This document shows positions 9,001 through 15,000 of a DNA stretch of 21,007 nt, one piece after another (within the stretch, counting starts at the first letter, position 1; each line of letters opens with the position of its first letter). The DNA lies in assembly GCA_039683575.1 (NCBI GenBank), contig JBDKRC010000228.1:1-21007 (forward strand). The letters are read 5' to 3'. The position numbers are program-made. Source of the stretch: Armatimonadia bacterium (GTDB lineage: Bacteria > Armatimonadota > Zipacnadia > Zipacnadales > UBA11051).

Positions 9001-12000
9001 GTACGTCATGACGCAGGACCAGGACGCCATTTCGCGCTTCTATCAGGTCCAGAAGGCGCAGACCGGCGCTCGGCTGGCGGTCGAGTACAACCCGCTGCAC
9101 ACCAAGCTGCTGCCGCGCACGGTGATTGGCTGCCTGCAGGGGGACTGGCACGAGCAACTGGCGCACTATCGCGAATGGGCCGATACCTGGTACAAGCCCG
9201 CCGCGCCGCGCAAGCGGTGGTTCCGCGAGGTCTTCAACTTCCGGCAGCAGTTCCTTAGCTTCGATGTGCCCACCAAGAGCGGGATGTTCGACATGGACAC
9301 CAAGACGCTACGGCTCAAAGAGGTCGTGGACGCCGATGCGAAGGCCTTTGGCGGCGTAGACTATCTGCACCTGTTCGATTGGGGCTGGGACCCCGTGCAT
9401 GGGCGCTGCGGAGACTATGCGCCGTGGGACTACCTCGGCGGCGTGGACAACTTCAAGCAGGCAGTGGCGGAGGTGCAGGCGTCGGGGGTGCCGGTGGGAC
9501 TGTACCTTGAGGGCGTGCTGGTTGACCCGCAGTCGAACCTGGGCAAGGCCCACGGGGCGGCGTGGCAGATGCTCGACCCACAGGGCAAACCGTACACGTA
9601 CTATGCCCCCAGCTACCACATGTGTTCGAACGTGCCCGAATGGCAGGAGGCGCTGAGCGACACCTACCGGCGGGTGGCGCGGGAGACCGGCGCCAAGGGC
9701 TTCTACATTGACGAGTACGGCTTCGCCCACGTCGGCCACTGGTGCTACAACCCGGCACACGGGCATCCCGTGCCGATGGCCTCGTCGCCCGGCCAGCTAC
9801 TGATGACGAAGAAGCTCCGGGAGAAGCTAGGCCCCGAGGCCGTCATATACACCGAGGAAAGCCCCATCGATGTGACGTCGCAGTACCAGGACGGGAGCTT
9901 CACCTACAATATCTCCAGCGTCTCGGACGCGTGGTCGCCGTCGCATGTGAACCTGTACCGGTTCGCCTTCCCGGACTTCAAGACCATCGAGATCATCACC
10001 TGTGACAAGCCGCTGGGGACGAACGTGGAGGCGGCCAAGCTCATCCTGTTCAACGGCGAGGCCATCTGGCTGGAGGGAAACGCGGACAAGTGGTTCAGCC
10101 CCTCCCTGCGCGAGCAGATTGCGCAGAACCGCCGGGTCATGCGTGAGAACCGCCAGTGCTTTGCGGGCAACTACCCGACGCCGCTGGTCCCGACGCTGCG
10201 CCGGGGGATCTACGCCAACCAGTTCAGCGAGCGGCCGGATCTGCTCGGCAAGACCTGCTGGACGGTCTACAACACGAACTACCGCACGGCGCGGGGGGAA
10301 CTACTGGCAGTAGACCACCAGCCGGGGTGTCAGTATCTGGACGAGATGACCGGCAAGCCGCTAAAGGCACGGATCGCGGGTGACAAGGCGTATCTGACGC
10401 TCGAAGTGGCACCGAGGGACGTGGTCGTGATCTCGCGGGGGCTGTACGTGAAGTAGGCTTTGCTGCCATGGTGAAGGGCTGATCCGTAGCTTTGACAACA
10501 TCATCTCACGCCATGTATAATCAGGGTCACAGCCGCGCCGGCGGAGTCTTCATCATCCGGGGCGGAGTATTGTTGCGCGTGCCACACAAACCTGCGGGAC
10601 CAAGAGGGCGAGTGTAATGGCTGAAAACTTCGCTGATCGCCTGGCTGCCGCGATGCGGCAAAAGGACAGCCGCCTGTGTGTGGGGCTCGATCCCCGCCTG
10701 GACCTCCTGCCCGCCGATGATCTGCCCGAAGACCCCGAGGCCCGCGTCGAGGCTTTCTGCTGCAGCATCTGCGACGTTGTCGCCCCCTATGCCGTGGCCG
10801 TAAAACCGCAGTCAGCCTATTTCGAGGCCCTCGCTCCCGGCGGCCTCGCCTGCATGTGGCGCGTGATCCGCTACGCCAAGAGCCTCGGGCTCCTGGTCAT
10901 CGTTGACGCCAAACGCAACGACATCGGCTCCACCGCCACCGCGTACGCCGCCGCCTGTCTGGGCATGCATACCGGCACGACCGAGCCTATCGCAGACGCG
11001 GTCACCATCAACGCCTACCTGGGCTACGATGGTGTCGAACCCTTCATCAATCTCGCCCGTGACCATGGCACGGGCGCTTTTGTACTGGTCAAGACTTCCA
11101 ATCCCGGCTCGGGCCAGCTTCAGAACCTGACGCTGGAGAGCGGGCAGACGGTATATCAGCACGTTGCCGACCTCGTGGCCCAATGGGGCGGCGACCTGGT
11201 GGGCATCAGCGGCTATAGCTCCATCGGGGCGGTAGTCGGGGCCACATATCCCGAGCAACTCGCGGAGCTTCGCCAGCGCATTCCCACCGTGCCCTTCCTG
11301 GTACCTGGCTACGGCCACCAGGGCGCCACTGCCGCCGATGTCAGCGCGGCCTTTGACGATCGGGGCCTCGGAGCGATAGTGAACTCAGCGCGCGGCATTA
11401 TCTACGCTTTCCGCCGGGAGGGCGGCGACTTCGCGGAAGCCGCCGAGGCTGCCGCTGCCAAGTCGCGGCAGGAGTTGAATGAGGCCGTACAGGGCAGAAC
11501 GGAGGCCGGCAGTTGACACTCAAGGGCAAAAGCCTCGTCTCGCTCTCGGACTTCAGCCATACGCAGATCATGCATCTGCTCGACCTGGCCGAAGCGATGG
11601 CGCGCGCCATCGGCTTTGATGACCCGGCGGACCGCACTCCCGCCGAGCCGCTTGACGCCATCGCCGCCACGCTCTTCTTCGAGCCCAGCACCCGCACCCG
11701 GCTCTCGTTCGAGTCCGCGATGCTCCGCCTCGGCGGCCAGACCCTCGGTTTCGCCGAAGCCAGTTCGAGTTCCGTCTCCAAGGGCGAGACCCTTGCTGAT
11801 ACCGTCCGCACCGTCAGCGCCTACTCAGACATCATCGTGATCCGCCACCCACTCGCCGGCTCGGCCCGCGTGGCCGCCGACTATGCCACGGTTCCAGTAA
11901 TCAACGCCGGTGACGGCGCCCGCGAGCACCCGACGCAGACGCTTACCGACCTGTTTACCATCCGCCGCGAACTCGGCACGCTGTCAGGCCTGAAGATCGG

Positions 12001-15000
12001 CCTCGCCGGCGATCTCAAGTATGGCCGCACGGTCCATTCGCTGGCTCCCATGATGGCCGGCCTCGGCTCCGACCTCGTCTGCATCTCCCCCGAGCAACTT
12101 CGCATGCCCGAGGAGGTCCTGGCCAAGGTCGGCGCCGCCGGCCGCCATGTCACCGAGCTTACTGACCTTGCCGAGGGCATCGCCGACCTGGACGTGCTCT
12201 ACATGACCCGCGTCCAGCGCGAGCGTTTCCCCTCTGACGAGGAGTACCAGGCAGTCAAGGGCTGCTGCATCCTGACGCCGGAGCTTCTGGCGCGCGCAAA
12301 GGAGGACATGCGAGTGCTGCATCCACTGCCGCGGGTTGACGAAATCACTCCCGGCGTGGATGTTGATAGGCGAGCCGCCTATTTCCGCCAGGCCGCCGGC
12401 GGCGTCCCGGTCCGCATGGCCCTTATCGCCACGCTACTCGGCCTGCCGTCCGCAGAGACCCGCCGCCCCGGCGCAGGCTTCGGCCGCACCGACAAGGCAG
12501 TCTGCGAAGAGGCAGCGCCAGCCGCCGCACCAACAATCAAAATGTCCGACCGCTGCCCGAACCCCAAGTGCATCACCAAGGCGGAGGGCTACCTGCAGCC
12601 CCAGTGTTACGAACAAGCAGGTGAGCGCTACTGCGCTTACTGTGAGATGGCTCTATAGAGGCGGAGGAGGTGAGCCAGTGTACAATTCAGTACGAGTTCA
12701 GAACTTCCGCGGCCTCCGTGATGTGACGCTAGAGGGGCTGACGCGAGTCAACCTGGTCGTTGGCCAGAACGGCGTTGGCAAGACAGCTCTACTGGAGGCC
12801 GTGTTCCTGCTCGCCGGCCTGCAACTACCTGACCCTCTGCGAGCGATCGAGACCCGCCGAGGGCTCCGCGAACCGTTCAGGACGTGGTCTCTCGATGAGG
12901 GTTTGCTTGAGAGCCTGTTCTATGGGTTCAACATGGCTGACGAGGTAGAGGTACAAGGCAATGGTGACGTGTTCACCCTTGCCTCGACGCGCGAGCAGGG
13001 GCAGCTTGTACCCAGGCTGTCTTGGCACTTAGCCGACGGCAGGGGGTCGACCACAATCTATGATCGTGATGGCAACATTGGTGGCTTTCAATCCGACCCG
13101 CGAGCGTTGCCGTCGCACAGACCGGTCTTCTTGGGTACGCGTGCGTTGCCCGCGCTCAAAGATGAAGCAGATCAGTTCTCAACGATGGTACAGGAAGGCA
13201 AACGGCCTCAGGTCATAGACTCGCTACAGGTGATAGAGCCGAGGTTGCAGCGCCTCGAACTGCTCAAAATGGGAGAGCAGGTTGCAGTGCACGCGGACGT
13301 GGGGCTCGCCAGAATGGTTCCGCTCGGGCTGCTCGGGGAAGGGCTGCAACGCCTCAGTTCCTTCGTCCTTGCCACTGCCGAAGCGTCCGGATACATGCTC
13401 CTGGTTGATGAGATTGACACCGGCCTGCATTACAGCATCCTGACCGACATGTGGCGAGTCGTGTCAGCCGCCGCCAGTGAGTTCAACTACCAGCTCTTCG
13501 CCACCACCCACAGCTACGAGTGCATGACCGCCGCCTACGAAGCCTTCGCCGACAATCCTGAAGACTTCTCCATGCATCGGCTGGAACGTCGCGAGGACGG
13601 CAGCATCGTCAGCAAAGACTTCGGGCATGACATGTTAGGGGTCGCGCTCGAACGCGGCTTCGAGGTGCGCTGATGGCGCGTTGCGGCGATCTTGCGAAGC
13701 CATTCAGTGCAGAACACCCAAGAGTCCTCCTTGTAGAGGGAAATGATGAGTTCTACCTCCTCTTGGAGCTATTGGGGCAGCTTGAACTGAACGTCGACGT
13801 GCGCGTCTACGACGGAGTCTCGGAACTGGCTCCCACTCTCATGGCTTTGGGGACGGGAACCGCCAGGGGCTTCGACAGCGTCACCACCATGGGGGTGTGG
13901 CGAGACGCCGATATCGTCGCAGACGACGCGCTGCAGAGCGTTCAGAACGCCCTGCGGCTCGCGGGCTTCGCGGTGCCTAACGCCTCAGGGGGGTTCGCAG
14001 AGGGGCAGCCTCGCGTGGGTCTTCTCATCCTACCTGATGGCGCCGCTCCAGGGGCACTTGAGAATGTCTGTGTAGCGTCCGTTCGAGACCCCGCTGCTTT
14101 GCCTTGCATAGACGGCTACATCGAGTGCCTACAGCGAGCAGGGGTGCACTTGCACCCCAACCTGGACAAGACAAGAGTGCATGCCTTTCTCGCCTCGCGC
14201 GAAGAGCCGGGCCTAAAAATCGGCGAGGCCGCCAAAGCCAGACACTGGGACTTCTCGCATCCCGCCTGGCAACCGTTGATCGAATTCCTGAGAGCTATGT
14301 GATTTCTGAAAATACATGGAGGACGTAAATGGACCTTTCCGGCAAGTACTGCATCGAGACCCCCAAAGTCAAAAAGTGCGCCGTCGCTTATAGCGGTGGC
14401 CTTGACTCCGCGCTCGCGCTCAAGCTTCTGCCCGATTACTACGGTGTTGAGGAAGTCCTCGCCTGCACCGTCAACGTCGGCCTCAGCGACTACGAGATCG
14501 AGCTCTGCCGCTCCAAGGCCGAGCTTCTGAACGTGCCGTGGCACTACATCGACGCCGAGAAGGAGTTTGTAGACAAGTTCATCACCCGCGCGATCTATGC
14601 CAACTCCAACTACGAGGGCTACCCCGTCTCGACCTCGATGACCCGCCAGCTCATCGCCCGCAAGGTCGCTGAGTTCGCCGTCGCCAATGGCTGCGACAGC
14701 ATCTGCGAAGGCTCCACCGGCAAGGGCAACGACCAGTTCCGCATGCACAACGTATTCTCGCTGTTTGCCCCGGACGCCACCATCGTGGTCCCCGTGCGCG
14801 ACTTCGACTTCACCCGCCAGGACGAGATGAAGCTCTCCGAGCAGTACGGCATCCCCTACAAGGCCGGCATCGGCGATGACCTCACCATGTGGTGCCGCTC
14901 CATCGGCTCCGGCGAAGTCAGCAACCTCAAGATGGTCATCCCGCAGAGCGATTACCTGTGGTACAAGTTCCCCGAGAATGCCCCGGACAAGCCGCGCCGC

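What a model noticed while it worked through the whole genome (the two positions that open the first line are those of the whole stretch)
11513..12658. Aspartate transcarbamoylase fused to only the zinc domain of the regulatory chain
PyrB (g03197, 381 aa) ends in a linker and a CxxxxC...CxxC PyrI zinc domain but lacks the nucleotide-binding allosteric domain, and no pyrI gene is found. This is a quaternary type between the bare trimer and the full PyrBI fusion.
Evidence so far: C-terminal 81 aa match PyrI_C over its cut-off (25.6 vs 23.4 bits; call 205). The same four-Cys tail in 5 of 5 relatives from three families, chains 366-411 aa. No PyrI family row in the tables.
(Added by a program. Inside this text positions count along the whole contig: contig position 1 is position 1 of the stretch shown here. 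"Call 12" and the like, gene names such as g00115 and contig names such as C1 are that model's own, and its searches are not shown. The text may have been shortened before it was handed on; [...] marks where a part breaks off. The agent that wrote the report below was given it as the finding of a first reader that could run no searches.)

Follow-up and report, generated by a model that had tools for sequence, protein, structure and literature searches.

The report
ATCase keeping only PyrI's zinc domain
This bacterium's pyrimidine-making enzyme ATCase carries only the small zinc-binding piece of its usual regulatory partner, fused to its end, and lacks the nucleotide-sensing piece; the same cut-down design is common in gut bacteria and seems to have arisen several times.

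Summary
Confirmed. ORF 11513-12658 is an intact PyrB (311 aa), a flexible linker and the four-Cys zinc domain of PyrI. No PyrI allosteric domain was found in this 96%-complete genome or in 301 genomes of its phylum, Armatimonadota. The design is not local: 118 of 120 pattern hits in species genomes are such fusions, mostly gut Clostridia, also Bacteroidota, Poribacteria and others. In a Ruminococcus-family sample 53 of 101 genomes have a fusion-sized frame. A single origin is rejected on the catalytic domain (p-AU 2e-6) but not on the short zinc domain (p 0.23). Clostridiaceae hold apparent intermediates: free 46-75 aa truncated PyrI genes right behind pyrB. A complex model docks the tail on the surface that PyrI uses in E. 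coli (0.76 vs control 0.09; a like complex is solved). Best reading: a trimer with three tethered zinc domains that stabilise or tune the enzyme, without nucleotide allostery. Oligomer, kinetics and zinc binding are untested. No description found in nine paper searches; key older papers were not held.

The parts
11513..12658 (+). pyrB gene encoding the 381-aa PyrB-linker-zinc-domain fusion
   Evidence: only pyrB-like match in the genome
11513..12445 (+). ATCase catalytic chain, residues 1-311 (ATC II type; nearest solved structure Pyrococcus abyssi 1ml4, 56% identity)
   Evidence: residues equivalent to E. coli S52-T55, S80, K84, R105, H134, Q137, R167, R229, Q231, P266-L267-P268 all present
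12446..12529 (+). linker, residues 312-339; variable in length and sequence, Pro/Glu/Ala-rich, low model confidence
   Evidence: alignment A3; pLDDT under 50 at model residues 316-327; composition
12530..12655 (+). PyrI zinc domain, residues 340-381, Cys348/353/374/377 (E. coli PyrI C109/C114/C138/C141)
11501..11505 (+). GGAGG ribosome-binding-site-like motif 7 bases before the TTG
   Evidence: sequence
10617..11516 (+). pyrF (OMP decarboxylase); its stop overlaps the pyrB start by 4 bases
   Evidence: TIGR02127 293 bits
18339..20047 (+). pyrK-like electron-transfer subunit and pyrD (context: the de novo pathway is present; pyrC lies on contig C264)

Best explanation
The protein is a normal ATCase catalytic chain that carries its own cut-down regulatory chain. 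Three chains form the usual catalytic trimer (inferred from the family). In each, the linker lets the C-terminal zinc domain fold round one Zn ion (inferred from four invariant Cys) and sit on the same patch of the carbamoyl-phosphate domain that PyrI binds in the E. coli enzyme (modelled). With no allosteric domain there is no nucleotide site and no regulatory dimer to bridge two trimers, so the enzyme should be a nucleotide-insensitive trimer with hyperbolic kinetics (inferred). The zinc domain is kept because it covers and stiffens that surface, stabilising the trimer or tuning substrate affinity (inferred). History: pyrB-pyrI operons lost the allosteric half of pyrI, leaving a small free zinc-domain gene, which then fused to pyrB; this happened more than once (supported by trees and by extant intermediates, order of events inferred).
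For: Docking: ipSAE 0.76, best control 0.09; the mark was reached by 116 of 157 solved and 2 of 215 mismatched pairs; runs share at least 93% of contacts, partner pLDDT at least 81. Interface maps to E. coli c-S11, T87-A89, H106-A111, R113-L114, D129-N132, Y197 and includes the pair equivalent to E109c-N111r, a known c-r contact (10.1101/350173, passages). A like complex is solved, so this shows likeness, not binding. Full-length model: pLDDT 91, pTM 0.90. Non-ligand residues of the catalytic-facing side are kept in 48 Armatimonadota tails as in 55 free PyrI: N111 94% vs 98%, E119 92% vs 87%, E/D142 98% vs 98% (these three were not forced by my filter in that set). The V106 position is large-hydrophobic in 54 of 55 free PyrI but 9 of 122 fused tails, as expected if its partner domain is gone (that V106 faces the allosteric domain is recalled). 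Linker floor: an uncapped scan for 10-20 residue spacings gave 114 stretches, only 3 of them fusions that short (12, 18, 18; the 12 has a duplicated segment), against 118 of 120 (capped) at 21-31. No allosteric domain over the cut-off in 0 of 14, 0 of 50 and 0 of 3 further fusion genomes; 4 of 5 and 2 of 2 control genomes had it. Intermediates: 11 free truncated PyrI genes of 75, 71, 67, 67, 66, 62, 58, 58, 51, 51, 46 aa directly behind pyrB, none with an allosteric domain elsewhere; fusion L424 still has the PyrI hinge in its linker. Fused chains nest among pyrB+pyrI chains; one clade rejected, p-AU 2e-6; the L177 tail is 57-63% identical to free PyrI of its catalytic neighbours.
Against: Nothing was measured. 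The tail is dispensable in at least one lineage: 8 of 8 genomes of family f4 end after the start of the linker and have no pyrI, and most of the phylum (279 of 301 have pyrB; 64 of 301 match PyrI_C, a floor) has no match. The E109 position is Ala in this protein and Glu in only 46% of Armatimonadota fusions against 93% of two-gene enzymes, so the interface has drifted. The zinc-domain tree does not reject one origin (p-AU 0.23, 46 columns), so spread of one tail by recombination or transfer remains open. The complex score may come from memory of solved ATCases. MAG incompleteness weakens each single absence.
Confidence: 0.6

Rival explanations
1. The enzyme is still regulated, through the tail: the zinc site senses zinc or redox state, or the freed face of the domain binds a new partner or ligand and shifts activity.
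For: Kept across several phyla and, on the catalytic tree, in several separate lineages. An aromatic residue appears after E119 in fused tails (Tyr 31% and 53% against 7% large-hydrophobic in free PyrI). Some PVC-group fusions add a further ~50-aa domain after the zinc domain (L185, L344, L385, P0076), so the position can carry a new module.
Against: Outside the Cys and catalytic-facing residues the tail surface and linker are not conserved, which argues against one shared ligand site. The plant-type UMP switch is absent: the F161-equivalent is Ser here and Phe or Tyr in 2 of 121 fusions.
Confidence: 0.2
2. The tails bridge two trimers (tail to tail, or tail to the 240s loop of the other trimer), giving a hexamer with some substrate cooperativity but no nucleotide control.
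For: The K164/Y165 and E239 positions, which link trimers in E. coli (K164-E239), are present in this protein.
Against: The dimer-forming sheet belongs to the missing domain. K143 is Lys in 51% of free PyrI but not among the top residues of Armatimonadota tails and 12% of the others; K164 and E239 are less conserved in fusions (67% and 48% in Armatimonadota) than in two-gene enzymes (98%; E/D 100%). The role of K143 in the trimer-trimer link is recalled. Not modelled.
Confidence: 0.1
3. The tail is a near-neutral relic that persists only because it is small and harmless.
For: Clean loss in family f4 with no replacement; long branches for fused tails in the zinc-domain tree.
Against: Four Cys and the unforced E119 and E/D142 positions are held across phyla while the adjacent linker is randomised; free 46-75 aa genes keep start codons and ribosome-binding-like motifs.
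Confidence: 0.09
4. Assembly or sequencing artefact joining pyrB to a piece of pyrI.
For: The window comes from a 352-contig assembly; chimeric proteins do occur in the representative library (for example P0052).
Against: Same architecture in 32 of 41 relatives, 118 of 120 pattern hits and in cultured isolates (L154, L183, L260).
Confidence: 0.01

Closest known systems
Class B ATCase, E. coli / Pyrococcus / Methanocaldococcus type (2 catalytic trimers + 3 PyrI dimers)
   Same: ATC II catalytic chain (1ml4 E 1.5e-103); PyrI zinc domain with the same four Cys and a modelled contact at the same surface.
   Different: No allosteric domain anywhere in the genome, hence no nucleotide site and no dimer sheet; zinc domain is on the catalytic chain.
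Thermotoga maritima-type fused PyrBI (NCBIfam PRK13376, 525 positions; Chen et al. 1998, seen only as a reference title)
   Same: Catalytic and regulatory-derived parts on one chain, zinc domain last (order seen in P0055).
   Different: That fusion keeps the allosteric domain and is called allosteric in the title; this chain is about 140 aa shorter and scores 119 of 800 bits, over the catalytic part only.
Class C ATCase (bare trimer, Bacillus subtilis) and the isolated E. coli catalytic trimer
   Same: Predicted trimer, predicted insensitive to nucleotides (class description in PMC4581275 and PMC6022934, passages).
   Different: Carries a zinc domain; sequence is far from B. subtilis PyrB (E 7e-40 against 1.5e-103 for 1ml4).
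Laboratory complex of the E. coli catalytic trimer with a 70-residue zinc-domain peptide (Schachman laboratory, early 1990s; recalled, paper not held)
   Same: Same parts: catalytic trimer plus zinc domains, no allosteric domain. As recalled, the peptide binds tightly, changes kinetics towards the R state and raises thermal stability.
   Different: That complex was man-made and non-covalent; here it is natural, fused or as a free mini-gene. The recalled properties were not checked.
Plant ATCase (UMP-inhibited trimer; PMC7878868, passages)
   Same: Single-chain ATC II trimer without PyrI.
   Different: The CP-loop Phe161 needed for UMP inhibition is Ser here; plants have no zinc tail.

Membership tests
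Aspartate carbamoyltransferase, ATC II | Family model over cut-off; carbamoyl-phosphate and aspartate-binding residues (STRT, K84, R105, H134, Q137, R167, R229, Q231, PLP) | tested here: met
   TIGR00670 346.9 vs 236.95 bits; residues 100% conserved in 48 Armatimonadota fusions
Aspartate carbamoyltransferase, ATC II | Measured ATCase activity | not testable with these tools
   No assay; only pyrB-like gene in the genome and next to pyrF
PyrI zinc domain (PF02748) | Profile match and CxNxxC...CxYC spacing | tested here: met
   25.6 vs 23.4 bits on the last 81 aa, 27.3 bits in the genome search; 22.1 on the full chain
PyrI zinc domain (PF02748) | Same fold as solved PyrI zinc domains | tested here: met
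   Model pLDDT 91; top structural hits all PyrI: Z 5.9/5.4, rmsd 1.8/1.9, 41 aligned; Foldseek TM 0.81 to 1pg5_B but E 0.014
PyrI zinc domain (PF02748) | Binds zinc | not testable with these tools
   Inferred from four invariant Cys
Class B ATCase (c6r6, separate or fused) | Allosteric nucleotide-binding domain (PF01948) present in the chain or genome | tested here: not met
   0 of 1, 0 of 41, 0 of 301 genomes; unfiltered own profile nothing at E<=10; controls rang in 7 of 14 reference genomes
Class B ATCase (c6r6, separate or fused) | Zinc domain docks on the catalytic chain's c-r surface | tested here: inconclusive
   Model passes (0.76 vs 0.09) at the known surface, but a like complex is solved
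Class B ATCase (c6r6, separate or fused) | Dodecamer, cooperativity, CTP/ATP response | not testable with these tools
   Needs purified protein
Thermotoga-type PyrBI fusion (PRK13376) | Family score over 800 bits; both PyrI domains fused | tested here: not met
   119 bits, residues 3-310 only; no PF01948
Class C ATCase (bare trimer) | Catalytic chain only, no regulatory-derived part | tested here: not met
   Zinc domain present
Class A ATCase (ATC-DHOase dodecamer) | ATC I-type sequence and complex with dihydroorotase | tested here: inconclusive
   Sequence far from the Aquifex chain (3d6n_B E 4e-27); pyrC lies on another contig; binding not tested
Plant-type UMP-inhibited ATCase | CP-loop Phe161 | tested here: not met
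   Ser here; Phe or Tyr in 2 of 121 fusions

The most novel reading that the evidence does not exclude
A fourth, widespread design of prokaryotic ATCase: the textbook allosteric enzyme has repeatedly shed its nucleotide-binding domain along a stepwise path still visible in living genomes (full PyrI, truncated free PyrI, 46-aa zinc mini-protein, fusion, finally loss), and the retained zinc domain is not just a patch but an entrenched activator or zinc/redox-sensitive switch that holds the trimer in an R-like state; it is the commonest form in Ruminococcus-family gut bacteria and has not been described.
Probability: 0.3. Interest if true: 0.8.

Novelty: new variant of a known kind. Interest (0 to 1): 0.6.

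Why it matters
ATCase is the classic model of allostery, and the two reviews read list only three prokaryotic arrangements. A natural enzyme that keeps the transmitter (zinc domain) but drops the sensor (allosteric domain) separates the two jobs of PyrI and lets one ask what the zinc domain does on its own, how allostery is lost, and whether an interface becomes entrenched. The series of natural forms, with close two-gene relatives as controls and cultured carriers, makes that directly testable. It also matters for annotation: these chains are named plain 'catalytic subunit', the tail can fall under the Pfam cut-off, and 46-75 aa pyrI genes are easy to miss, so models of pyrimidine feedback in common gut bacteria may assume the wrong enzyme type. 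The parts and the chemistry are all known, which caps the score.

Tried and rejected
Divergent pyrI hidden in the genome: rejected. Unrelated zinc ribbon: rejected. Armatimonadota-only feature: rejected. Derivation from the Thermotoga fusion: no support; T. maritima itself was not put in a tree. Plant-type UMP control: key Phe absent. RNA element: no Rfam match in the window at gathering score; PyrR and attenuators were not otherwise tested. The word-based protein search on residues 300-381 found only 10 close relatives. The representative search with the tail profile gave 1000 proteins at E<=0.001; of the best 150, 34 overlap a catalytic domain (nearly all short fusions, one full fusion) and the rest are mostly fragments and free PyrI, so it gives no clean count. 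The zinc-domain tree was uninformative (2 starred branches). In the tree my script mislabelled L418, L421 and L423 as fused; they are free truncated PyrI, so that tree's group counts are not used. In one search the 'bare' label includes contig-end truncations (L006, L024) and genomes with pyrI elsewhere (L094, L141). One weak PF01948 match (17.5 bits, 478-aa frame, L269) was not followed. A trimer could not be modelled (size limit). Papers: nine searches gave no description of the short fusion or mini-PyrI; Chen 1998, Markby 1991 and Labedan 2004 are not held, and no supplements were read, so a mention there or in a domain-architecture database cannot be excluded.
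Full report
1. The observation. The ORF at 11513-12658 is one open frame of 381 aa with a TTG start, a GGAGG motif 7 bases upstream and a 4-base overlap with the stop of pyrF. Residues 6-309 are an aspartate carbamoyltransferase (TIGR00670, 346.9 bits), nearest in the PDB to Pyrococcus abyssi 1ml4, with all substrate-binding positions intact. 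The last 81 aa match PyrI_C at 25.6 bits against a cut-off of 23.4; on the whole chain the score is 22.1. The weak score is backed by a tail profile whose top 12 PDB hits are all PyrI chains and by a model of the tail alone (pLDDT 91) whose best structural matches among 48,161 chains are the zinc domains of 2yww and 2be7 (Z 5.9 and 5.4, 41 residues aligned; next Z 2.4). The full-length model has pLDDT 91 and pTM 0.90 with only the linker disordered.

2. Absence of the allosteric domain. PF01948 finds nothing in the own genome (96.4% complete), in 41 relatives or in 301 genomes of the phylum, while ringing in 7 of 14 reference genomes. A profile built from 55 free PyrI allosteric domains, run without filters over 88,492 six-frame stretches, finds only the added E. 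coli control.

3. Spread. In the phylum sample 279 of 301 genomes have pyrB and 64 match PyrI_C, 56 over the cut-off. Of the 30 best loci, 29 are read as PyrB fusions and one has a gap of N upstream but the same junction. Three PyrI_C-negative genomes that I read also have the tail, so the count is a floor. Family f4 (8 of 8) stops just after the start of the linker and nests inside the fused clade: a secondary loss. Outside the phylum, 13 of the 80 best loci of a capped search were short fusions (biased towards them). In 101 genomes of the family of Ruminococcus sp. YE71, 78 match PyrI_C: 53 in frames of 305-441 aa (fusion-sized; two were read), 24 in frames of 141-240 aa, one doubtful. Of fusion genomes tested, 0 of 14 and 0 of 50 (50 of 118 sent) have an allosteric domain over the cut-off; 4 of 5 unfused controls do. 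Completeness of these is not given.

4. Intermediates and history. In 119 scored Clostridiaceae genomes, 102 match PyrI_C: 92 rows in 140-169 aa frames, 3 fusions, 9 short frames. The short ones, with L336 and L340, are 11 separate genes of 46-75 aa directly behind pyrB, each with a start codon and a purine-rich motif, lacking most or all of the allosteric domain; none of the 11 genomes has PF01948. The longer ones keep the PyrI hinge, and fusion L424 has that hinge inside its linker. On catalytic-domain trees fused and two-gene forms interleave: 191 rows, at least 7 changes forced by starred branches (FastTree); 34 rows, at least 4 (IQ-TREE); holding the fused rows together is rejected, p-AU 2e-6 (rows were picked after seeing the first tree, and the two-gene sample is the best of a capped search). 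The L177 tail is closest to free PyrI of its catalytic neighbours (57-63%). Against this, the 46-column zinc tree cannot reject one origin (p 0.23). Bacteroidales fusions sit inside the Clostridia clade, which suggests transfer (not tested further). I read this as several origins by loss of the sensor half and then fusion; the direction is inferred, since the trees have no firm root.

5. How it most likely works. In E. coli the allosteric domains form the dimer sheet and bind nucleotides, and the zinc domain binds the catalytic chain (PMC11601545 section 9, read in full). Modelled as two chains with zinc, the tail docks with score 0.76 against a best control of 0.09 (mark reached by 116 of 157 solved and 2 of 215 mismatched pairs; contacts agree at least 93%; partner pLDDT at least 81), on positions equal to E. 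coli S11, T87-A89, H106-A111, R113-L114, D129-N132 and Y197, including the E109-N111 pair named in 10.1101/350173 (passages). Because a like complex is solved, this shows likeness only. Sequence agrees: E119 and E/D142 are kept as in free PyrI, N111 in 94% of the 48 Armatimonadota tails; for the pattern-selected tails N111, I115 and Y140 were forced by my pattern and carry no weight. The V106 position turns polar (large-hydrophobic in 9 of 122 fused against 54 of 55 free; kin are not independent; its role at the inter-domain face is recalled). In the tail-less f4 enzymes the R113 position is Ala, Gln or Thr in 8 of 8, against Lys or Arg in 24 of 25 fused order members (one event). Very short linkers are rare (3 of 114 stretches), as a fixed docking site would require. 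So: a trimer with three tethered zinc domains, no nucleotide site, no bridge between trimers; the tail stabilises or tunes. Shown: parts, absence of the sensor domain, spread. Modelled: fold and docking. Inferred: zinc binding, trimer, insensitivity, benefit. Against: E109 is Ala here, and f4 lives without the tail.

6. Against what is known. Two reviews (PMC4581275 and PMC6022934, passages) list class A (with dihydroorotase), class B (with regulatory chains, separate or fused) and class C (bare trimer). This protein fails a defining feature of B (no allosteric domain), of the Thermotoga fusion (119 of 800 bits) and of C (has a zinc domain), and lacks the plant UMP switch (PMC7878868, passages). 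It most likely works like a class C trimer built from class B parts. From recall, the Schachman laboratory made the same combination artificially in the early 1990s; I could not read those papers. PMC4016543 (passages) and PMC13168310 (term search with no passage) added nothing on this form. Nine searches (listings and abstract starts only) found no description, but the library lacks most subscription papers, including Chen 1998 and Labedan 2004, and the architecture is visible in precomputed Pfam annotation, so it may have been noted.

7. Verdict. Real, widespread, and apparently undescribed as a type; made of known parts with known chemistry. New variant of a known kind; interest 0.6.

Noticed in passing
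L310:1239-1376, L336, L340, L412, L417-L423: Free truncated PyrI genes (46-75 aa, zinc domain with or without the hinge) directly behind pyrB in Clostridiaceae; in L310, L336 and L340 a dihydroorotase-like gene follows. No allosteric domain found in these 11 genomes.
   Followed up: yes
L185, L344, L385, P0076: PyrB-zinc fusions in a Verrucomicrobiia and Planctomycetales records (L385 unlabelled in my output) carry a further ~50-aa C-terminal domain; P0076 has a weak Ada_Zn_binding match (E 0.011, under cut-off). Possible new module in place of the allosteric domain.
   Followed up: partly
L031, L032, L427-L432 (family f4): Tail-less PyrB ending in a remnant of the linker, with no pyrI: an ATC II-type bare enzyme by secondary loss.
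   Followed up: yes
L033-L034, L037-L041, L048-L050, L057 (family f31): A 20-35 residue basic insertion in the aspartate domain of these PyrB fusions, and in some a second basic insertion near the N-terminus (alignment A3).
   Followed up: no
P0055; L330: Full PyrBI fusions with both PyrI domains outside Thermotoga: a 493-aa protein, and a Methanosarcinales record split over two frames.
   Followed up: no
window 12678-14302: AAA_21 (AbiEii-like) ATPase and DUF3226 gene pair between pyrF-pyrB and argG; possibly a defence or toxin-antitoxin-like module.
   Followed up: no
window 14329-20047: argG, a rubrerythrin-like gene and argH lie between pyrFB and pyrK-pyrD, with a DUF2442 gene on the other strand at 17805-18083: arginine and pyrimidine genes interleaved.
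   Followed up: no
window 7-744, 867-1655, 20229-20945 (- strand): Three DUF1559 prepilin-like paralogues; the one at 20229-20945 lacks the N-terminal methylation motif within its frame, near the contig end.
   Followed up: no
window 1748-5330: ATP sulfurylase, a phosphodiesterase-family gene and APS kinase in a row.
   Followed up: no
G000 whole genome: No uracil phosphoribosyltransferase (PF14681) match, although all 14 reference genomes ring; uracil salvage by this route may be missing.
   Followed up: no
G252:C1:1651277 and 1360382: Two PyrI_C matches with equal scores in one genome, one next to a run of N; probably an assembly duplicate.
   Followed up: no
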